A program made the translations under genes and the position numbers. Positions 14,973 through 51,203 of a DNA stretch of 64,000 nt are shown piece by piece (the first letter of the stretch is position 1; the number at the start of each line of letters is the position of its first letter). The stretch spans positions 30,584 through 94,583 of IMG/VR virus record IMGVR_UViG_3300033146_001635; one strand, given 5' to 3'. This DNA is from a virus. The notes below the pieces were generated by a model. That model did no database searches. It saw only the letters and a program-made list of their open reading frames with translations, and was not told where the DNA came from.

Positions 14973-15668
14973 TTAAATTGCCAAAACTTTTGTAATTTCT
15001 TCTATAGATTTACAATATGCTGCTATAAGAGCAGCTTCATTAATTGGATCTAAAAAATATTCCAGCTCATTTGAATTATCAATAAAAAACGGTTCTGCAA
15101 TAACACAAGGAGCCTTTGTATATTTTAGTAAATATCCACCTCTATCTTCAACAGTCAACGGAACAATACCTCTATCCCTAGATTCAATTGAATCTGGTTT
15201 AATTGATAAAAGATTTTTTTGAAGTATTGTTGCCATTGTTAAACCCAACCACGATTTATAATAATATAAAACCTCGCACCCTTTAGCTTTGGTATTAAAA
15301 GCATTACAATGTAAACTAATAATAAAATCTGGATTCAATTCATTAATATCATTTGGCAATGATTTATATGTCCGACGATAAATTCTTTGAATTATAATAT
15401 CACTATCATAAAATCTTTTTTCTATTCCCAAAGCAATTTTTTCATTAAATTCGAATTCATATATGTCATGATCTATATTATATGCACCGGGTGATGTTTT
15501 TTTATGACCAATTACCAAAGCGCAAGTTATCAATTCTTTATCTGTTTGATTTTTTGAATCGACCATTTTTTTCATTTCCTCTTGTATAGCAACTGTTTTT
15601 ATTTTTTCTTGCCACCACAATGATGTAAAATTATTAAAAAGTGTTTTAATAAAACTAAACATATTCAA
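14973..15668 (-). CDS. N-acetylmuramoyl-L-alanine amidase (Amidase_3), probable endolysin
   Basis: IGH...E...ISLHCNA...VIAEPFFIDN Zn-amidase motifs. Confidence 0.9.
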   Translation of the reverse strand: MNMFSFIKTLFNNFTSLWWQEKIKTVAIQEEMKKMVDSKNQTDKELITCALVIGHKKTSPGAYNIDHDIYEFEFNEKIALGIEKRFYDSDIIIQRIYRRTYKSLPNDINELNPDFIISLHCNAFNTKAKGCEVLYYYKSWLGLTMATILQKNLLSIKPDSIESRDRGIVPLTVEDRGGYLLKYTKAPCVIAEPFFIDNSNELEYFLDPINEAALIAAYCKSIEEITKVLAI

Positions 15669-15797
15669 CGTACCTCGATTAATTTAATAAATTATATTAC
15701 TTCAATAATATGTTCCCATATTTATAATAAAATACGAAGATTATATATATTATATATTAGAATAAAATAACTTTTAATTTTACACAGGAGGAATGAA

Positions 15798-30557: not shown

Positions 30558-31082
30558 ATGATAGAAGCAGCAGATTATATAACAATTACAGAATGTTCAA
30601 AATTATTTAATTTGAATCCATCTACTGTTAAAACATATATAGGTGGACCTGATTATCCAGGTTTTAGATGGAGTAAAAAAAGAGTATATAAAGTCTTAAA
30701 AACATATCAACGAAATTGTGCTAAATGTGGAAAACCATTTATTCTACATAAAAATAATACTAAACATTCAACACTTTGTGCAGAATGTAGAATAATAAAA
30801 AAAGTAAAAGTATACAAACGAATATGTCCCAAATGCAAACAACCATTCACAACAAAAATAAAAGAAAATAAAATCTGTTTCCAATGTTTGTCTAATCCTT
30901 CTATTAACAAAAAAAATGATCCATTTGGTGTAATGAGAAAACCAACTTATCGTGGGAGAACATGCCCTTGTGGAAGTGGTATTCCATTACCAACTGGTAT
31001 ATATAGATGCAATGAATGTAATGACAAATTTCAATATGAAAGAAATGAGTATGTAGATGATTTTGTTTATTATTTTAACTAA
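30558..31082 (+). CDS. HTH plus multi-CxxC Zn-finger protein (putative regulator)
   Basis: ITITECSKLFNLNPSTVKTY HTH; several CxxC pairs; GGAGG RBS. Confidence 0.65.
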   Translation: MIEAADYITITECSKLFNLNPSTVKTYIGGPDYPGFRWSKKRVYKVLKTYQRNCAKCGKPFILHKNNTKHSTLCAECRIIKKVKVYKRICPKCKQPFTTKIKENKICFQCLSNPSINKKNDPFGVMRKPTYRGRTCPCGSGIPLPTGIYRCNECNDKFQYERNEYVDDFVYYFN

Positions 31083-31091
31083 GAGGAAATA

Positions 31092-31616
31092 ATGTTAAAT
31101 TTAGCTATTGAATACGCAACTGAAAAACACAAAAATCAAAAAAGAAAATATATTAATTTACCATATATTATACATCCATTAACTGTTATGGAAATTATCC
31201 GAGGTACAGTTGAGAATCACACAGAAGAAATGCTATGTGCAGCTGTATTACATGATGTAGTTGAAGATACAGATACCACAATTATAGATATTAAAAATAA
31301 TTTTGGTGAAGATGTTGCGGAATATGTATATTATTTAACAGATATTTCCAAACCATCTGATGGTAATAGAAAAATTAGAAAAGAATTAGATAGACAGCAT
31401 ATAGCAAAAGCGGGATATGAAGCACAAACAATTAAATTAGCTGATTTAATTGACAATTCTGCTTCTATTCTTTTATATGATAAAAATTTCTCTGTAGTAT
31501 ATATTAAAGAAAAAATGAAACTTTTAGAAGTTTTAACAAAAGGTGACAAAAGACTTTTAGAAGTTGCTAATCAAATTGTAATGGATTATTATTTACAAAA
31601 AAATATAATTACATAA
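31092..31616 (+). CDS. HD-domain small alarmone ((p)ppGpp) hydrolase, Mesh1/SAH-like
   Basis: H..QKRK...PYIIHP...AAVLHDVVEDT...IKLADLIDN. Confidence 0.85.
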   Translation: MLNLAIEYATEKHKNQKRKYINLPYIIHPLTVMEIIRGTVENHTEEMLCAAVLHDVVEDTDTTIIDIKNNFGEDVAEYVYYLTDISKPSDGNRKIRKELDRQHIAKAGYEAQTIKLADLIDNSASILLYDKNFSVVYIKEKMKLLEVLTKGDKRLLEVANQIVMDYYLQKNIIT

Positions 31617-31693
31617 CAAGGGAGGGTGATGCCATGTACCTTTATTTTCATCCCATCTGACGTATTAACCTTTAAAAAAAAAGGAGTTTTTGG

Positions 31694-32011
31694 ATGGGTA
31701 AAACAATTAGAAGGAAGAATTCTAAACCGGATTATCTGCTCAATTACCATGACCCCATGTTCGACCACAATGAGGCGAAGTGGTATTGGAGAAATCATCA
31801 GATTAAATATATGGGCAAAGAGCATCAGCGCCGTATTGCCCGATATTTTTCTGATGCCGGAACTACGATGAATCAGGCCCCTAGTTGGTATAGGAAAATG
31901 TTGAATCGTAAATTCCGTCGCAAGAATTCGCATATTCTTGTGAAAATCCAGAAAGGGCATGATAAAGAATTCATCCCGTTTAAGAAAAATCTTCTGTGGT
32001 TGTGGTGGTAA
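31694..32011 (+). CDS. Small basic hypothetical protein
   Basis: 105 aa, AAGGAG RBS, followed by terminator. Confidence 0.7.
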   Translation: MGKTIRRKNSKPDYLLNYHDPMFDHNEAKWYWRNHQIKYMGKEHQRRIARYFSDAGTTMNQAPSWYRKMLNRKFRRKNSHILVKIQKGHDKEFIPFKKNLLWLWW

Positions 32012-32027
32012 GTATTGTTTACCACCA

Positions 32028-32080
32028 GAAATCTCCCCATTATTCTATTAATTTAGAATGATGGGGAGATTTTCTTTTTT
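32028..32080 (+). terminator. Intrinsic terminator
   Basis: AAATCTCCCCAT...ATGGGGAGATTT followed by T-run. Confidence 0.75.
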
Positions 32081-32089
32081 GGAGGTTAA

Positions 32090-33031
32090 ATGTATACAAC
32101 AATTGATAGTATCAATAATGTGCTTACATCATATAAAAATGGAAACTACAATGTTATTATTTTAAAAGATGGTACTAAAATTAGACAAACAATTGATAAT
32201 GAATTTCAACCAGATTTTCCAGAATCAATGGATGTTAAAATAACAAATAGATGTGATTTAAATTGTAATTATTGCCATGAAAATTCTGTAGAAAATGGTC
32301 GGCATTGTAATATTGAACAATTAATTTCAGTTTTAAAAAATTTTCCAGTACCCGGTGTTGAATTAGCCATTGGTGGTGGTAATCCATTGGAACATCCATA
32401 TCTTATTGATTTTTTACAATGGGCTAAATCTAATGGATTTATTTGTAATTTAACAATAAATGGTAAACACATAAATCATATTTTAAATAAAATTATAGAA
32501 AAAAATCTAATTCATGGATTAGGTATTTCATATACAAATGAAACAGAAAAATTAATTGAATATCCCCACACAGTCTGTCATTTAATTGCAGGTATTCATT
32601 CTATTAAGAATATTCAACATGCATTAGATATATATGGAAAAGTTTTAATTCTTGGATATAAAAATGTAGGGAGAGGATCTACTTTTGGAGTTAAAAACAA
32701 TAAAGAAATAAATAATAATATTCTACAATTATCAAATAATTTATGGAAATTATTTCAACACGAAGGTATTATAAGTTTTGATTGTTTAGCAATTGACCAA
32801 TTACATTTAAAAAAATATTTTACTAACCATGAATGGGAAACATTTTATATGGGCGATGATGGAAAGTTTTCTATGTATTTTGATGCTGTTAATATGATAT
32901 ATGGTAGAAGTTCAACATTACAACACAGAGAAATGGAATTTTGTAAAGATATTCATATATTTAACTTTTTTAAAAAAATATCCAATATAAAAAGAGACAT
33001 AGATGAGGTGATTAATAATGTTAATAAATAA
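32090..33031 (+). CDS. Radical SAM protein
   Basis: CDLNCNYCHE (CxxxCxxC), ELAIGGGNP, NLTING. Confidence 0.9.
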   Translation: MYTTIDSINNVLTSYKNGNYNVIILKDGTKIRQTIDNEFQPDFPESMDVKITNRCDLNCNYCHENSVENGRHCNIEQLISVLKNFPVPGVELAIGGGNPLEHPYLIDFLQWAKSNGFICNLTINGKHINHILNKIIEKNLIHGLGISYTNETEKLIEYPHTVCHLIAGIHSIKNIQHALDIYGKVLILGYKNVGRGSTFGVKNNKEINNNILQLSNNLWKLFQHEGIISFDCLAIDQLHLKKYFTNHEWETFYMGDDGKFSMYFDAVNMIYGRSSTLQHREMEFCKDIHIFNFFKKISNIKRDIDEVINNVNK

Positions 33032-33575
33032 ACGTATTGGTATATTTGAAACAAATTCATCTTCTTCTCATTCAGTATCTGTTTCTATAAACAATAATAA
33101 TTTAAAATGTTGTTTAAAAAAATATGATGAAGATGGTTTTATAGTTATCCGTACTGAGGGTGGTGAATTTGGATGGGAGGTTGATTACTTTCAAGACGCT
33201 GAAACAAAATTATCATATTTGATTACATATATTTTTAGAAATTTTGATATATCAGATATAGATGAAGATATAAATAAAATGACACCTAGTGAACAATGTA
33301 AGATATTAAACAGTTTAAATTTACCAAAATACCTAAATAAATCAGATTATGAATTATATCAGAAATTAGAAAAAATAATTTGTAAATTTTGCACATGTGA
33401 TAAATTACGAGTAGAAATAAAATCTAAATTTTATCTTTTTGGATATATCGACCATCAGAGCACAAATATAGCATATGATATATTACAATCTAATGAAGAA
33501 TATATTTTAAATTTTATTTTTAATCCAGAATCTATCTTAAAAACTGACAATGATAATCGATGGGATATACAATGA
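33018..33575 (+). CDS. Hypothetical protein with FETNSSSSHS motif (radical SAM partner)
   Basis: RIGIFETNSSSSHS...GEFGWE...KLSYL...GYIDHQS; overlaps radical SAM gene. Confidence 0.65.
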   Translation: MLINKRIGIFETNSSSSHSVSVSINNNNLKCCLKKYDEDGFIVIRTEGGEFGWEVDYFQDAETKLSYLITYIFRNFDISDIDEDINKMTPSEQCKILNSLNLPKYLNKSDYELYQKLEKIICKFCTCDKLRVEIKSKFYLFGYIDHQSTNIAYDILQSNEEYILNFIFNPESILKTDNDNRWDIQ

Positions 33576-34336
33576 ATAAAATATATTGTAATAAATGTAA
33601 AATTGCAATGAAACCTGGTATTGCATTAGAAGAAAATATATCAGCAGGAATACCAGATTTTATTGGTGATGACCAAATTGATAATCTTGATTTACGGGGT
33701 CAGACCTTATCACCAGATGGAACAGCGCATATTATAAACTGTTGGAAATGTCCATCTTGTGGGCATAGTATTTTGATTGGAAGAGATAAAATATTAGAAC
33801 TAAAATATGATAAAATTGCTATATGTGGATATGCATGTGCTGGAAAATCCGAAGTATATAAATTTTTAAAATCTATTACAAAAGATTCTATTCATATTCA
33901 TCTTCTTAAATTTGCTGAACCTCATTATCAAGTTTTAAATATATTACAACAAGAAACTAAAAATAGATTATTTCTACAAGATTTTAGTGATTTGGCTAAA
34001 AAATATTTTGGAAAAGATATTTTTGTTAAAATATTTCTTCAAAAAGCAAAACATGATATGTATATTCAATATACAGTATGTGATGACCTAAGATATAAAA
34101 TAGAATTTGATGCTGTTAAAGAAAATGGGTGGTTTACTATTTTTGTAGATGCAGATGAAAATCTAAGAAAACAAAGAAGTGATGAATTGGGTTATGTATG
34201 GAATCCTAATCATAATTCTGAAAAAGAATTACATTTATTTAAAAACCAATGTGATGCTATTTTTGATAATAATTCATCTTTTCAACATTTATATAATCAA
34301 ATTATGCAAACTTGTGTTAAGGAAGGATATGTGTAA
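33560..34336 (+). CDS. Deoxynucleoside monophosphate kinase with N-terminal Zn-ribbon-like insert
   Basis: IAICGYACAGKS, KFAEP, DDLRYKIE, HNSE; alternative start 33572. Confidence 0.8.
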   Translation: MGYTMNKIYCNKCKIAMKPGIALEENISAGIPDFIGDDQIDNLDLRGQTLSPDGTAHIINCWKCPSCGHSILIGRDKILELKYDKIAICGYACAGKSEVYKFLKSITKDSIHIHLLKFAEPHYQVLNILQQETKNRLFLQDFSDLAKKYFGKDIFVKIFLQKAKHDMYIQYTVCDDLRYKIEFDAVKENGWFTIFVDADENLRKQRSDELGYVWNPNHNSEKELHLFKNQCDAIFDNNSSFQHLYNQIMQTCVKEGYV

Positions 34337-48003: not shown

Positions 48004-48543
48004 CTAAATTGAGATTTTAACTTCTTCCTTTTTTGTTAATGCTAATAATGCTTTCAATGCATCATATAGACACCACGCTCCTATCACAATATCAAGAGCA
48101 ATCATATTAGTATTTTCTTCTTGAATATCAGATACAAGAAAATTCATCATTACTAAAAATAAAATACCATTGAATAAAAGATTTATTTTGTGAGTAGAAG
48201 AATCTTTTTCTAAATTATATTTTTTAGAAACATGATCTTTTGCAATTTTCATTAACAAATCTTTTTGTTGGATCCTATTGGATGTTTTATATTTTTCAGA
48301 TTCAAATTTTTCACCAATTGCTTTAGAATCAGATAATGCATTTTTCATAACTTGTTTAACTTTGTTGGCACCAATTAATTTAGAAACAAACGGAACAAAT
48401 TTATCTTTTACTTTTTTTATGGCCCTTTTTGGATCCTTTAAAAATGACATTTTAAAAAGTTTTTCTTTATATGAATCTGATTCATATAAATGTTGTTGAA
48501 TAGCATAAGTTTCTAATAATTCATTTCTATAATCATAGTTCAT
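48004..48543 (-). CDS. Membrane protein with (I/L)xE leader
   Basis: LLE, LYE leader; two C-terminal TMs; likely ATG 48543. Confidence 0.65.
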   Translation of the reverse strand: MNYDYRNELLETYAIQQHLYESDSYKEKLFKMSFLKDPKRAIKKVKDKFVPFVSKLIGANKVKQVMKNALSDSKAIGEKFESEKYKTSNRIQQKDLLMKIAKDHVSKKYNLEKDSSTHKINLLFNGILFLVMMNFLVSDIQEENTNMIALDIVIGAWCLYDALKALLALTKKEEVKISI

Positions 48544-48633
48544 TTCAAACCCCCTATAACAAAGATTATTATTCAATTATATGTTCTTTATTTTATTTTA
48601 ATATCATCAATTCTATTATATATATATTAATTA

Positions 48634-48805
48634 ATGATACCACAAAAATTAAGTTTTGTGGTATCATCTCCACAAAGGAGAGAACGCTAGCTGGTGCGTT
48701 AAATAAAATTCGGTATTCGGTATCAATCTCCGAATTAAAAAACAAGATTGACCAGAATCAAGTCAGTTTGCAGCTCTGACTTAAAACAAAAGCTGCTTTT
48801 TTTTT
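48634..48805 (+). ncRNA. Candidate structured RNA: three hairpins, two tandem H-type pseudoknots, U-tract
   Basis: Pairings read directly from sequence (see findings); no ORF; no known family recognised. Confidence 0.55.
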
Positions 48806-48933
48806 AAGATATAAATACAACTATATATATTATTTTTTGATTAATAAATTTATCTTTAATAAAAGGAGGTTTAACTGAATACTTTAAATCTGTGATTGTT
48901 TTTTATTTAACTTATTAAAAAGGATTTGAGATT

Positions 48934-49257
48934 ATGGAAAAATTTAGTAACACACTTGTTGTAGAAGTATTCGATGCAGAAAATGAATACGATTATATCT
49001 TCACGAATATTGTTGATGATAATAAAGAATTTCAAAAACTTTCGAGGGATGAACAAAAAGAAATAATTGTTGATAAAATTGAAGCAATTAATGCACAGGG
49101 ATGTTTTATCGAAGTTGAAAAAAATACTCGCTTTGATAAAATGAGAATAGGTAACAGTCCCCTTGAAAGTGATTATATTGAAATTCAAGAAGGGGATATT
49201 ATTTTTTATTCGTCAGCATCAATTCAAAGAATATTTGCACCATCCAATAAAAAATAA
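48934..49257 (+). CDS. Hypothetical acidic protein
   Basis: 107-aa ORF. Confidence 0.65.
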   Translation: MEKFSNTLVVEVFDAENEYDYIFTNIVDDNKEFQKLSRDEQKEIIVDKIEAINAQGCFIEVEKNTRFDKMRIGNSPLESDYIEIQEGDIIFYSSASIQRIFAPSNKK

Positions 49258-49283
49258 CTTTGTATCAACAACGGAGGCTTTTT

Positions 49284-50051
49284 ATGAGTATAAGAAAAGT
49301 TGAATACAAATCTGACGAATGGCAATATATAGTAGAACATTATAACATTGATACCTCTGTAACAAAAACAAATGATATTAATGTTTATATACACAAATTG
49401 TATAAAGATAAAGATAAAGATAAAGATTTGACTAATATCTATCTTTTGAAAAAAACAAAAGAATATCATGAATTATTTTATATTGGATATAATGACAAAA
49501 AACTTAAAAAAATATTTCATGCCCAACATATATCAGACGATAAAAATTCTGGATTCTTTTCAGGATTAAGTAAATATGTAAAAATAAAACATATGAATAA
49601 ATGGGCGTTGATTGAAATAAATCCTATGATGCCCACTGACATAATATATCCCATAACAAATTGGTATGATGATATAAAAAATATGGGATGTCTTGTTTCC
49701 ATGAAAAATAATATTATCGTTGGTGAAACTAATGGATATATTGTTTTTGCCAATATATATAATCAATTAACCGAACGATATATTTATTCATCTACATATA
49801 ATACAATTCATGATTGCCGTGGATTAATATATGATGATGAATATTTTATTATTTTAAAAACATTAAATAAATCACCTGTTAAATATAGAATATATACTAA
49901 ATATGGTTATTTATTAGTTGATAAATATTTTGAACATATTCAAATCAATCATAACAAATTTATAATAAGAGAAGATGGTAAATCATTTTATTATTGGGTT
50001 GATAGTAATTATAACATCCACCAAGAATCAGCTCTAAAAAATAATAAGTAA
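49284..50051 (+). CDS. Hypothetical protein
   Basis: ATG 49284 after GGAGG. Confidence 0.65.
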   Translation: MSIRKVEYKSDEWQYIVEHYNIDTSVTKTNDINVYIHKLYKDKDKDKDLTNIYLLKKTKEYHELFYIGYNDKKLKKIFHAQHISDDKNSGFFSGLSKYVKIKHMNKWALIEINPMMPTDIIYPITNWYDDIKNMGCLVSMKNNIIVGETNGYIVFANIYNQLTERYIYSSTYNTIHDCRGLIYDDEYFIILKTLNKSPVKYRIYTKYGYLLVDKYFEHIQINHNKFIIREDGKSFYYWVDSNYNIHQESALKNNK

Positions 50052-50062
50052 ATTATCCCCAA

Positions 50063-50287
50063 ATGAGTATTGGTATGAATTTATTAGATTTTAAAACATT
50101 TGAAAATGAATTTAAAAAAATAACACCACATGAATATTGTTGTTCATGTGGTAAAAAATTAAATAATAATAACAAAAGTAATAAATTTATAAAACCTATA
50201 AACAAATCAATACCCCAACATTGTTGTATTCAATGTGAGAAAGATGTTGATGAAAATGGATTTTTTGTTGAGGAAATTTTAACTTAA
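50063..50287 (+). CDS. Small Zn-finger-like protein
   Basis: CCSCG...CCIQC. Confidence 0.55.
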   Translation: MSIGMNLLDFKTFENEFKKITPHEYCCSCGKKLNNNNKSNKFIKPINKSIPQHCCIQCEKDVDENGFFVEEILT

Positions 50288-50308
50288 ACTTTTGAGGAAT
50301 TTATTATT

Positions 50309-50593
50309 ATGAAAGGTTTTCCCATAACTCTGAAAATTACCCTGATTGATGGAATATCTACTGAGATCCAATGGAAACTACCACAATATGTTTATGTAGA
50401 TAAACAATACAAACAAGAAAGATACATTAGAAATGCAATGATTAAAATAGCCTCTGATGGTTTCACAGTTAGTGAGCCAGATAATGATTTCCATGATATT
50501 CTAAGATATTATCCACCTAACCAAATTAAAAATATTGATTTTGATTTTACTGAATTTTATGCATCAAAATCTAAAGAATCTTTAGAAGAATAG
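50309..50593 (+). CDS. Hypothetical protein
   Basis: 94 aa, GAGG RBS. Confidence 0.6.
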   Translation: MKGFPITLKITLIDGISTEIQWKLPQYVYVDKQYKQERYIRNAMIKIASDGFTVSEPDNDFHDILRYYPPNQIKNIDFDFTEFYASKSKESLEE

Positions 50594-50607
50594 GATAATA
50601 AAATATC

Positions 50608-50811
50608 ATGCCTAATATGGATTATTGTAGATTTCAAAATACTTTTTATGATTTACAAGAATGTTATAAACACATGGATGATACAGATTTATCATCATCA
50701 GAAAAAAATTTTCGAAGAAAAATTATTGAATTATCATCTGCGATTGTCAATGAATATATAGACGAACTGGATGAACCTTTTGAAAGGGGTGATTTTGATA
50801 ATGAATGTTAA
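50608..50811 (+). CDS. Small hypothetical protein (NMDYCRFQNT motif)
   Basis: 67 aa; motif type common in phage small ORFs. Confidence 0.6.
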   Translation: MPNMDYCRFQNTFYDLQECYKHMDDTDLSSSEKNFRRKIIELSSAIVNEYIDELDEPFERGDFDNEC

Positions 50812-51145
50812 TGATTATATAAACGAATCAGCTAGAACCATGGCTCCCAATATATACCATGAAAGTGTAAATGTAGAAACTTTACATGGTATTATTGGAA
50901 TATCTGGTGAAGCTGGTGAATTAATAGATGCTGCTAAAAAAGCATTATTCTATGGACATGATTTAGATAAGAAAAATATTAAGGAAGAATTGGGTGATAT
51001 ACTCTGGTATATTGCCGCAGTTATTCGAAGTGAAGGATGGACTTTTGAAGAGATCATGGAAGAAAATATTGATAAATTAAAAAAGAGATATCCAGAACAA
51101 TTCACATCTGAATTGGCTAAAGAACGTCTGGATAAAAAAGGTTAA
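50801..51145 (+). CDS. MazG-like nucleotide pyrophosphohydrolase
   Basis: GISGEAGELID..KK...EELGDILWY...NIDKLKKRYP. Confidence 0.9.
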   Translation: MNVNDYINESARTMAPNIYHESVNVETLHGIIGISGEAGELIDAAKKALFYGHDLDKKNIKEELGDILWYIAAVIRSEGWTFEEIMEENIDKLKKRYPEQFTSELAKERLDKKG

Positions 51146-51150
51146 AATAA

Positions 51151-51200
51151 AAAATCTCTCGCCTATTAGTATGCACTAAATTAGGCGAGAGATTTTTTTT
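51151..51200. terminator. Bidirectional intrinsic terminator
   Basis: AAAATCTCTCGCCTA / TAGGCGAGAGATTTT between convergent genes. Confidence 0.8.
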
Positions 51201-51203
51201 TGT

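What the first reader, a model, noticed from the sequence alone, without database searches (positions are those of the whole stretch)
48634..48805. Candidate ncRNA with two tandem H-type pseudoknots and a U-tail
Seen on the + strand after a TATATATATT motif: a 14-bp hairpin (48634-48667), then CTCC/GGAG and AACGC/GCGTT hairpins. Pseudoknot 1: AATTCGG 48707-13 pairs with CCGAATT 48730-36, and TCAATCT 48723-29 with AGATTGA 48745-51, with an 8-nt A-rich loop. Pseudoknot 2: AAGTCAG 48760-66 pairs with CTGACTT 48776-82, and GCAGCT 48770-75 with AGCTGC 48791-96, with loops UUU and AAAACAAA. Nine Ts follow. The two knots share geometry but not sequence. Known: type III antitoxins (ToxI) are ~35-nt pseudoknots that phages can mimic, and tmRNA has serial pseudoknots, but no tRNA-like ends are visible. 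Inference: an undescribed small RNA or structured leader, possibly anti-defence.
Basis: partly seen in the sequence, partly recalled or inferred. Interest (0 to 1): 0.75.

Follow-up and report, generated by a model that had tools for sequence, protein, structure and literature searches.

The report
Jumbo-phage early RNA with twin pseudoknots
A giant bacteriophage carries what looks like a small non-coding RNA gene of about 170 bases with its own early promoter and terminator. Its body is a duplicated 37-base unit predicted to fold into the same pseudoknot twice, but no transcript data or relatives exist to prove it or show what it does.

Summary
The window is part of a 94.6-kb, 27% GC jumbo-phage contig of the AR9/phiR1-37 type, which encodes its own multisubunit RNA polymerase.

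The "TATATATATT" motif is this phage family's early promoter. It fits the AR9 virion-RNAP consensus and recurs upstream of genes in related contigs. It would start transcription at about 48636, the base of the 14-bp hairpin. The T9 run ends the unit, and a second early promoter for the downstream operon follows. The unit is therefore a self-contained, roughly 168-nt non-coding transcription unit. It is a GC island (37% against 16% flanks) with a fold z-score of -5.8.

The two knots are a diverged 46-nt tandem duplication, 23/37 identical in register. All stem differences are compensatory: 5 double changes and 0 single ones.

Two tandem knots never arose in 5000 shuffles. A nested alternative fold is about isoenergetic.

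No Rfam family matches; PreQ1 scores 13.7 bits against the 39 needed. No toxin gene, orthologue or RNA data was found.

Verdict: probably a real orphan phage small RNA. The pseudoknots are plausible but unproven. Function is unknown.

The parts
48574..48586 (-). Late-type promoter of the leftward gene 48004-48543: GAACATATAATTG, that is AACA-N6-TG with predicted start G48574.
   Evidence: The motif recurs 30-50 nt upstream of many minus-strand (structural) genes. It fits the AR9 late consensus AACA-(6N)-T-A/G (PMC5312081).
48619..48638 (+). P1, an early (virion-RNAP type) promoter: TATATATATTAATTAATGAT. Predicted start G48636 or A48637.
   Evidence: It fits the AR9 early consensus AAATATATATTAT-(6N)-G. 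It also fits the family-wide TATATATATTAATWANTGA found upstream of genes in related contigs. It sits back-to-back with the late promoter, as at 15715/15741 and 30442/30494.
48636..48805 (+). Predicted non-coding transcript of about 168-170 nt.
   Evidence: Bounded by P1 and T9. GC is 36.8% against 16% in the flanks. Fold z-score -5.8. No ORF with an RBS. No Rfam family.
48634..48667 (+). A 14-bp perfect hairpin; 12 bp if the RNA starts at G48636, flush with the 5' end.
   Evidence: stacking about -21.6 kcal/mol. 5'-terminal hairpins also follow early promoters in relatives.
48668..48700 (+). Two small hairpins: CUCC/GGAG, and AACGC/GCGUU with the loop UAGCUGGU.
   Evidence: They are short and not significant on their own.
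48707..48751 (+). Pseudoknot unit 1. Stem 1 is ATTCGG 48715-20 (or AATTCGG 48707-13) with CCGAAT(T) 48730-36. Stem 2 is TCAATCT 48723-29 with AGATTGA 48745-51. L2 is 0 nt and L3 is (U)AAAAAACA.
48752..48759 (+). Linker CCAGAAUC between the units. Part of the competing helix 48745-52 with 48762-69.
48760..48796 (+). Pseudoknot unit 2. Stem 1 is AAGUCAG with CUGACUU. L1 is UUU. Stem 2 is GCAGCU with AGCUGC, which is also the terminator stem. L2 is 0 nt and L3 is AAAACAAA.
48797..48805 (+). U9 tract, the proposed intrinsic termination site.
   Evidence: The contig has four T runs of 9 or more on the + strand. Two follow canonical 11-14-bp terminator stems, including the end of the downstream operon at 51157-51201.
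48821..48841 (+). P2, a second early promoter (CTATATATATTATTTTTTGAT) serving the operon that starts at 48934.
   Evidence: The stretch T9 + about 15 nt + promoter + UTR + RBS (48797-48870) is paralogous to G000 15329-15420: alignment score 101 against 63 +/- 7 for shuffles.
48934..51145 (+). Downstream early operon: the 107-aa acidic orphan, the 263-aa basic protein, three small ORFs and a MazG-like pyrophosphatase. It ends at a strong bidirectional terminator.

Best explanation
The element is a stand-alone early gene for a structured small RNA of about 168 nt in an AR9/phiR1-37-like jumbo phage.

Proposed mechanism, all inferred:
1. The injected virion RNA polymerase starts at P1, around G48636. 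The RNA therefore begins with a 12-14-bp clamp hairpin.
2. Two small hairpins follow. Then come two copies of a duplicated 37-nt module, 46 nt apart.
3. As each module emerges it folds into the same H-type pseudoknot: stem 1 of 6-7 bp, no nucleotide between the stems, stem 2 of 6-7 bp, and an 8-9-nt A-rich loop 3 lying along stem 1.
4. In the second module, stem 2 abuts U9. Stacked on stem 1 it gives a 13-bp quasi-continuous helix, about the length of this phage's ordinary terminator stems. Most P1 transcripts would therefore end there as a free RNA closed at both ends.
5. The downstream operon has its own promoter, P2.

The most likely mode of action is as a trans-acting, protein-binding RNA (decoy or sequestering RNA) made at the start of infection. 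It is less likely to act as an antisense regulator.

Shown here: the pairings, the promoter and terminator motifs, the duplication with compensatory changes, and the absence of any known family. Inferred: transcription, simultaneous formation of both stems, termination, and any function.
For: Promoters and terminator:
- Early and late promoter motifs of this contig match the AR9 consensus sequences (against PMC5312081).
- P1 matches the extended family consensus seen upstream of genes in six related records.
- AR9 polymerases stop at predicted intrinsic terminators.
- T9 resembles the contig's proven-style terminator tails and is followed by a promoter at the same spacing as at G000 15329.

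RNA-like properties:
- GC island, 36.8% against 16% flanks, the highest of all non-coding segments.
- Fold z-score -5.8.

Pseudoknots:
- Two tandem knot-compatible stem pairs occurred in 0 of 5000 shuffles. They are unique in about 0.83 Mb of natural phage DNA.
- The units are 23/37 identical. Of 13 pairs, 7 are invariant, 5 changed on both sides, and none changed on one side only.
- Both loop 3 sequences are 7/8 A.
- Stem stacking energies are -10.5, -10.0, -11.3 and -12.6 kcal/mol. With a roughly 9.6 kcal knot penalty (recalled from memory) the double knot comes to about -22, against -20.2 for the nested minimum-energy fold.

Precedent and targets:
- Small transcription units with a start site followed closely by a terminator are documented in jumbo phage 201phi2-1 (PMC11512511).
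- Complementarity to the rest of the contig does not exceed chance, which argues against an antisense role within the available 26% of the genome.
Against: - There is no direct evidence of a transcript.
- No orthologue was found, so covariation rests on two paralogous units that were themselves picked for perfect stems.
- The repeat is only moderately significant: p = 0.002 against shuffles, but 4.7% of natural windows score as high.
- A competing 8-bp helix (48745-52 with 48762-69) gives a nested fold of nearly equal energy.
- The terminator stem alone is 6 bp with a 15-nt loop, far weaker than the contig's 11-14-bp terminators. The terminator scan did not call it, so read-through into the operon is possible.
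- All stems are perfect Watson-Crick, so they fold equally well on the minus strand (z-score -5.5).
- The function is a guess.
Confidence: 0.5

Rival explanations
1. The element is a cis-acting leader or attenuator of the early operon 48934-51145. P1 transcripts either stop at stem 2 + U9 or read through. The chain of overlapping pairings would act as a switch, possibly set by a ligand or a protein in the manner of a riboswitch. The chain is: 48723-29 with 48745-51; 48745-52 with 48762-69; 48760-66 with 48776-82; 48770-75 with 48791-96.
For: - The mutually exclusive linker helix exists and is part of the minimum-energy fold.
- The terminator stem is weak.
- The element lies upstream of and co-oriented with an operon.
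- Knot 1 shows a faint PreQ1-I resemblance: hairpin, UAAAAAAC, then a 3' tail pairing into the loop.
- Relatives have long structured leaders after early promoters, for example L040 and G003 306942 with a hairpin and T-run at +49.
- Eight of the 11 sRNAs in 201phi2-1 derive from 5'UTRs by premature termination.
Against: - P2, a full early promoter, lies between T9 and the gene, so the operon does not depend on P1.
- In both the knotted and the nested fold the terminator stem still forms. No antiterminator that sequesters 48770-75 or 48791-96 is evident beyond a 5-bp loop match.
- PreQ1 scores 13.7 bits against the 39-bit gathering threshold.
- No queuosine genes lie nearby.
- L2 is 0 nt, which leaves no junction pocket.
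Confidence: 0.22
2. The element is a type III antitoxin-like RNA. Either it is a phage-borne mimic that neutralises a host ToxN/AbiQ/CptN/TenpN-type abortive-infection toxin, or it is the RNA half of a new phage type III-like pair with a downstream protein.
For: - The layout matches the locus criteria of Blower et al. 2012: a promoter, tandem repeats that form pseudoknots, a terminator and then an ORF. ToxI repeats are 31-46 nt, and gaps of up to 340 bp are tolerated (PMC3401426).
- Here there are two repeats of 46-nt period, then T9, then an ORF 128 nt further on.
- TenpI repeats can be non-identical (PMC12283969 abstract).
- The element sits behind an early promoter, which would suit a counter-defence role.
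Against: - No ToxN/CptN/TenpN-like protein follows. The 107-aa protein is an acidic orphan (pI 4.46) and the 263-aa protein resembles WG-repeat proteins. Neither hits Pfam, PHROGs or PADLOC.
- There are only two units and they are 62% identical, whereas toxin-processed repeats are usually near-identical.
- A promoter intervenes before the ORF.
- The host and its defences are unknown.
Confidence: 0.1
3. The element has no RNA function. The inverted repeats would be DNA-level sites (operators, a recombination or replication element) or a decayed remnant left between a duplicated promoter cassette and the original promoter.
For: - All helices are perfect Watson-Crick palindromes that fold equally on both strands.
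- The 14-bp palindrome overlaps the predicted start site, as an operator would.
- The P2 cassette is a paralogous copy of another locus, which shows rearrangement here.
- The locus lies in an accessory region absent from all relatives.
Against: - Compensatory changes between the units preserve intra-strand pairing of interleaved arms, which a dimeric-protein operator does not need.
- The strand-specific features are all on the + strand: A-rich loop 3, U9, promoter orientation, and the G-U pairs of the linker helix.
- The sharp GC island argues against decay in a 16% GC spacer.
- There is no GC-skew turning point beyond what the local switch of gene strand explains.
Confidence: 0.13

Closest known systems
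Small non-coding transcription units of jumbo phages (for example the 11 sRNAs of Pseudomonas phage 201phi2-1, three intergenic and eight from premature termination in 5'UTRs; PMC11512511)
   Same: Short (under 250 nt), a phage promoter followed closely by an intrinsic terminator, no ORF, in a phiKZ-related phage with its own RNA polymerases.
   Different: Those RNAs were mapped experimentally. This one is only predicted. There is no sequence or model similarity, and none of them is described as built from tandem pseudoknots.
Type III toxin-antitoxin antitoxin arrays (ToxI, CptI, TenpI) and the phage PhiTE pseudo-ToxI mimic
   Same: Tandem repeats of about 31-46 nt, each predicted to fold as a hairpin-type pseudoknot, followed by a terminator and then an ORF. 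Phages are known (from memory, Blower et al. 2012 PLoS Genet) to carry mimics.
   Different: There is no cognate endoribonuclease gene. There are only two units at 62% identity. These units are classical H-type knots with long stems rather than the compact triplex core with two single-stranded tails of ToxI.
PreQ1-I riboswitch (Rfam RF00522)
   Same: A small H-type pseudoknot: a stem 1 ending GGU...CC, an A-rich loop 3 (UAAAAAAC), and a 3' tail that pairs into the hairpin loop. It can control a terminator.
   Different: It scores 13.7 bits against the gathering score of 39. Stem 2 is 7 bp instead of 3-4. There is no L2 and so no ligand-pairing C. No queuosine genes are nearby.
AR9 early transcription units (virion-RNAP promoter AAATATATATTAT-(6N)-G; PMC5312081)
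   Same: The promoter sequence, the back-to-back arrangement with an AACA-(6N)-T-A/G late promoter, tandem early promoters, and ends at intrinsic terminators.
   Different: The AR9 units described encode proteins or a tRNA. No comparable structured non-coding unit is reported in that paper.

Membership tests
PreQ1-I riboswitch (RF00522) | Covariance-model score at or above Rfam's gathering score (39 bits) | tested here: not met
   13.7 bits, E about 1 on a 109-nt search, at 48704-48751. Nothing at gathering threshold.
PreQ1-I riboswitch (RF00522) | Short P2 (3-4 bp) with an L2 segment carrying the C that pairs with the ligand | tested here: not met
   Stem 2 is 7 bp and abuts stem 1 with L2 = 0. 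The feature definition is from my own knowledge of the family.
PreQ1-I riboswitch (RF00522) | Association with queuosine/preQ1 synthesis or transport genes | tested here: not met
   The downstream operon and other + strand genes give only MazG, HD, dNMP kinase, radical SAM or no family.
Type III toxin-antitoxin locus (toxIN/cptIN/tenpIN) | Tandem nucleotide repeats upstream of a terminator | tested here: met
   Two units, 46-nt period, 70% identity over 30 nt and 23/37 over the knot, followed by stem + T9. Weak point: only two diverged copies, and repeat significance is modest.
Type III toxin-antitoxin locus (toxIN/cptIN/tenpIN) | Repeats fold as pseudoknots | tested here: inconclusive
   Both stems are present in both units with 5 compensatory double changes. 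There is no probing and no orthologues, and the nested alternative is isoenergetic.
Type III toxin-antitoxin locus (toxIN/cptIN/tenpIN) | Downstream toxin of the ToxN/CptN/TenpN (Kid/MazF-like endoribonuclease) families | tested here: not met
   No Pfam, PHROGs or PADLOC match for the six downstream ORFs. The 107-aa protein has pI 4.46. The 263-aa protein's Atlas model resembles WG-repeat proteins. The AF2 model of the 107-aa protein is too poor to use.
tmRNA | tRNA-like domain and tag reading frame | tested here: not met
   ARAGORN finds no tRNA or tmRNA in the window. Rfam finds nothing.
AR9-type early (virion RNAP) promoter | AT-rich consensus AAATATATATTAT followed about 6 nt later by the start purine | tested here: met
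   P1 is ATATATATATTAA-TTAAT-G/A, matching 11/13 of the AR9 consensus. It matches the family-wide TATATATATTAATWANTGA found before genes in G001-G005, G010 and L011-L027. Promoter activity itself cannot be tested here.
Intrinsic (Rho-independent) terminator | Stable G+C-rich hairpin immediately followed by a U-tract | tested here: inconclusive
   The U9 is present and abuts the GCAGCU/AGCUGC stem. The stem is only 6 bp with a 15-nt loop, about -8 kcal/mol, and was not called by the scan. The contig's clear terminators have 11-14-bp stems.
Phage small-RNA transcription unit (start site then terminator within 250 nt) | Mapped 5' and 3' ends of a discrete transcript | not testable with these tools
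   No RNA run holds the sequence. Only low-depth DNA contigs could be laid.

The most novel reading that the evidence does not exclude
The RNA is an early-expressed, phage-encoded array of two diverged pseudoknot modules. It acts as a protein trap, for instance a mimic of a type III antitoxin that disarms a host abortive-infection endoribonuclease. Its last pseudoknot also serves as the transcription terminator, through coaxial stacking of the two stems. Neither an RNA counter-defence gene in a jumbo phage nor a pseudoknot-type intrinsic terminator has, to my knowledge, been described.
Probability: 0.1. Interest if true: 0.8.

Novelty: new member of a known kind. Interest (0 to 1): 0.5.

Why it matters
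Non-coding RNAs of jumbo phages are only beginning to be mapped, and none has an assigned mechanism. This is a compact, synthesisable candidate of about 170 nt with clear and falsifiable structural predictions: two paralogous H-type knots, one fused to the terminator.

If the fold is real, it would be a clean natural example of module duplication with compensatory drift in an RNA. It would also be a lead for RNA-based counter-defence or early host takeover in the AR9/phiR1-37 group.

The work also defines the early and late promoter consensus for an uncultured branch of that group, which helps annotate these contigs.

The limits are serious. The element is an orphan in a metagenomic contig with an unknown host, so biological tests need a surrogate system.

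Tried and rejected
- Rfam at gathering and permissive thresholds found no family.
- ARAGORN found none.
- blastn of the spacer against 50,697 phage records found no match.
- Flanking proteins:
  - The 180-aa and 107-aa neighbours have no relatives in IMG/VR or in cultured phages.
  - The 107-aa protein is unique among 5.8 billion proteins.
  - The 180-aa protein has two distant homologues, P0003 and P0004.
  - Profile scans of viral and metagenome contigs for them found nothing.
- The 239-aa neighbour hits a 636-kb uncultured phage, but without synteny.
- Relatives found through the tail sheath lack the neighbouring genes and the element.
- A covariance model of the element found nothing below E = 0.05 in about 0.88 Mb of related DNA.
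- My knot finder found no tandem analogue in the relatives.
- Exact-pattern scans of viral and metagenome contigs returned 0 hits.
- The 1158-aa neighbour has no IMG/VR relatives.
- Sequencing runs: no RNA holder is listed. Laying three DNA runs gave only short low-depth contigs and nothing usable on variation.
- The AF2 model of the 107-aa protein has pLDDT 48.5 and is unusable, so no fold search was made.
- Antisense targets within the contig: the longest complementarity is 13 nt, the same as for shuffles.
- Replication-origin idea: the GC-skew change at 48-51 kb merely follows the local switch of gene strand.
- Coding idea: there is only an 18-codon frame without an RBS on the + strand and a 50-aa TTG frame without an RBS on the - strand.
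- Earlier scan notes for this genome concern other loci, and the look-alike search returned nothing relevant.

Full report
**Setting.** The window is bases 30584-94583 of a 94.6-kb IMG/VR virus contig. CheckV rates it 26% complete, so the phage is of jumbo size. GC is 27%.
- The contig encodes the NADFDGD motif of a multisubunit RNA polymerase beta' subunit (sequence context).
- It also encodes a contractile tail sheath. The nearest cultured relatives of the sheath are Yersinia phage phiR1-37 (31% identity) and Bacillus phages AR9/PBS1 (28%). This places it as a deep, uncultured branch of the phiKZ-related group.
- The finding lies in a 390-bp spacer between divergent genes: 48004-48543 on the - strand and 48934-49257 on the + strand.

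**Observation.**
- The 177-nt stretch folds far better than shuffles. The minimum free energy is -49.1 kcal/mol against -29.1 +/- 3.5, z-score -5.8, and 0 of 200 shuffles do as well.
- The minus strand folds almost as well, z-score -5.5. This is expected because every helix is perfect Watson-Crick.

**Promoters and terminator.** Two motifs recur in the contig.
- GAACATATAA(T/A)TG lies 30-50 nt upstream of many minus-strand, mostly structural, genes, including 48574-48586 in front of the leftward neighbour.
- (C/T)TATATATATT lies upstream of + strand gene blocks. It occurs twice in this spacer, at 48619-28 (P1) and 48821-31 (P2).
- They match the mapped promoters of AR9: early (virion RNAP) AAATATATATTAT-(6N)-G+1 and late AACA-(6N)-T-A/G (PMC5312081).
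- In contigs related through the sheath gene, the extended form TATATATATTAAT(A/T)AnTGA recurs upstream of genes. In the complete 312-kb relative G003, 20 sites share it, and each has a gene start within about 20-185 nt, mostly 45-90 nt.
- P1 (TATATATATTAATTAATGAT) fits this family consensus better than any other site in the contig. It is nearly identical to a promoter in G001.
- P1 sits back-to-back with the late promoter, as in two other divergent spacers of the window. The predicted start is G48636 or A48637, the base of the 14-bp hairpin.
- The contig has four T runs of 9 or more on the + strand. Two follow textbook 11-14-bp terminator stems, one of which closes the downstream operon at 51157-51201.
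- AR9 polymerases terminate at predicted intrinsic terminators.
- The segment T9 + about 15 nt + P2 + UTR + RBS (48797-48870) is a paralogue of a terminator-promoter-UTR junction elsewhere in the genome (G000 15329-15420). The alignment score is 101 against 63 +/- 7 for shuffles.
- The region from 48636 to 48805 is therefore bracketed as a unit of its own, and the operon has its own promoter.

**Non-coding, RNA-like character.**
- The unit is a GC island: 36.8% against 15.9% and 16.4% in the two flanking parts of the same spacer. This is the highest value among all non-coding segments of the contig.
- It has no ORF with a ribosome-binding site.
- It matches no Rfam family. On a 109-nt search the best hit is PreQ1 at 13.7 bits against a gathering score of 39.

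**Are the pseudoknots more than chance?**
- I scanned for two interleaved perfect stems of at least 6 bp with L1 1-10, L2 0-2 and L3 3-12.
- Of 5000 dinucleotide shuffles of 48700-48806, 28 had one such pair and none had two.
- In natural sequence, the contig has 11 other candidates per strand, mostly AT-only stems.
- Requiring at least 2 G/C in both stems leaves about 6 other loci in 0.83 Mb of this phage and its relatives. None of them is tandem or followed by a T-run.
- These criteria were set after seeing the element, so the figures are indicative only.

**The two knots are a duplicated module.**
- The repeat finder reports 48717-46 and 48763-92 as a 30-nt direct repeat of 70% identity at a spacing of 46.
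- In that register, the 37-nt units 48715-51 and 48761-97 are 23/37 identical. Stem 1, stem 2 and the A-rich loop 3 of one unit fall on those of the other.
- Of 13 pairs, 7 are invariant, 5 differ on both sides while staying paired (U-A/G-C, G-C/A-U, C-G/G-C, A-U/C-G, U-A/G-C), none differs on one side only, and one terminal pair is lost. Sliding the partners by 1-3 columns drops pairing from 96% to 9-46%.
It also identifies the proximal ATTCGG (48715-20) as the homologous stem-1 arm. The distal AATTCGG is an extra copy from a 7-nt tandem duplication (D3).
- Caveats: there are only two sequences, both were chosen for perfect stems, and the repeat is of modest significance (p = 0.002 against shuffles, but 4.7% of natural windows reach 23/37).

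**Energetics.**
- Stem stacking energies are -10.5, -10.0, -11.3 and -12.6 kcal/mol.
- With a knot penalty of about 9.6 kcal plus small loop terms (Dirks-Pierce values, recalled from memory), the double knot comes to roughly -22 kcal/mol. The nested minimum-energy fold of 48700-48806 is -20.2. That nested fold uses stem 1 of unit 1, a competing 8-bp helix (48745-52 with 48762-69, which has two G-U pairs) and the terminator stem.
- The two folds are therefore about equal in energy.
- Order of synthesis favours the knots. Each stem-2 partner is available before the competing strand has been made. This is inference.
- With L2 = 0, the two stems of unit 2 would stack into a 13-bp helix ending at U9. 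That is about the length of the phage's ordinary terminator stems (inference).

**Search for relatives and expression.** No homologue of the element or of its immediate neighbours could be obtained.
- The locus lies in an accessory region absent even from a relative with 70% sheath identity.
- No RNA run is listed for the sequence, and laying the DNA runs gave nothing useful.
- Orthologous covariation and transcription therefore remain untested.

**Function.**
- Within the available contig the RNA has no complementarity above chance. This argues mildly against an antisense role inside the phage.
- The riboswitch reading fails the PreQ1 membership tests and lacks a gene context.
[quoted passage not shown] The downstream proteins are not ToxN-like, however. 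One is an acidic 107-aa orphan. The other is a basic 263-aa protein whose Atlas model resembles WG-repeat proteins. Neither hits a defence or toxin family.
- A decoy or antitoxin-mimic role is possible but unsupported.
- Small start-then-terminator units are documented in jumbo phage 201phi2-1 (PMC11512511). The kind of element is therefore known, but this particular architecture is not.

**Verdict.**
- The best reading is an orphan, early-expressed, structured small RNA of about 168 nt. Its core is a duplicated H-type pseudoknot module, and its second knot carries the terminator. I put confidence at about 0.5 for this package, and higher, about 0.7, for "a functional + strand RNA element of some sort".
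- A cis-acting attenuator of the downstream operon is the main rival.
- The function is unknown. I favour a protein-binding, trans-acting role, with low confidence.

Noticed in passing
window 15715/15741, 30442/30494, 35040(-), 48574-48638, 48821-48841; relatives L011-L027 and G001-G005: This uncultured phage group uses AR9-like promoter signals. The early form is cTATATATATTAAT(A/T)AnTGA and the late form is AACA-N6-T(G/A). They are often placed back-to-back in divergent spacers. In the complete 312-kb relative G003, all 20 extended early sites are on one strand.
   Followed up: partly
window 48797-48870 against G000:C1:15329-15420 (outside the window): A terminator T-run, early promoter, 5'UTR (shared AAATTTATCTTTAAT) and RBS are duplicated between two loci. 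In the copy at 48864-48880 the RBS is followed by CTG and a 6-codon frame instead of a gene start, so it looks like a decayed gene head.
   Followed up: partly
G004 (IMGVR_UViG_3300029267_002357), minus strand from 12182; L073:11900-12190: In a relative, an early promoter is followed by a GC-rich (48%), strongly folding non-coding stretch of about 207 nt that ends in a long-stem terminator with a T7 run. It has no Rfam match. It is another candidate phage small RNA, unrelated in sequence to the one studied.
   Followed up: partly
L040 (G006:C1:3800-5100), minus strand 1125-960: An early promoter is followed by a long imperfect hairpin leader of about 110 nt (TTCAGAGCAGAGGA...TCTTCTGCTCTGAA) in front of a small Gly/Lys-rich ORF. 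It has no Rfam match.
   Followed up: no
L053:12381-12452 (G003 near 250,000), minus strand: A tRNA-Glu(UUC) gene sits directly downstream of an early promoter in the complete relative. No tRNA is present in the 64-kb window.
   Followed up: yes
window 38894-39242 (minus strand), inside the hairpin array 37676-40610: Each unit of about 82-92 bp in this block of the hairpin array carries TTAGATATATT, a one-mismatch version of the early-promoter core, on the minus strand. The array units may therefore each have a promoter-like site.
   Followed up: no
window 51157-51201: A strong bidirectional terminator, A-run + TCTCTCGCCTA...TAGGCGAGAGA + T9, closes the + strand early operon and the converging minus-strand late genes.
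   Followed up: no
window 30558-34336 and 50771-51145 (+ strand): Genes behind early-type promoters include an HD-domain protein, a dNMP-kinase-like protein, a radical SAM enzyme and a MazG-like pyrophosphatase. This nucleotide-metabolism set would fit a modified-base genome, as in the dU-DNA relatives AR9/PBS1/phiR1-37. That link is my inference only.
   Followed up: no
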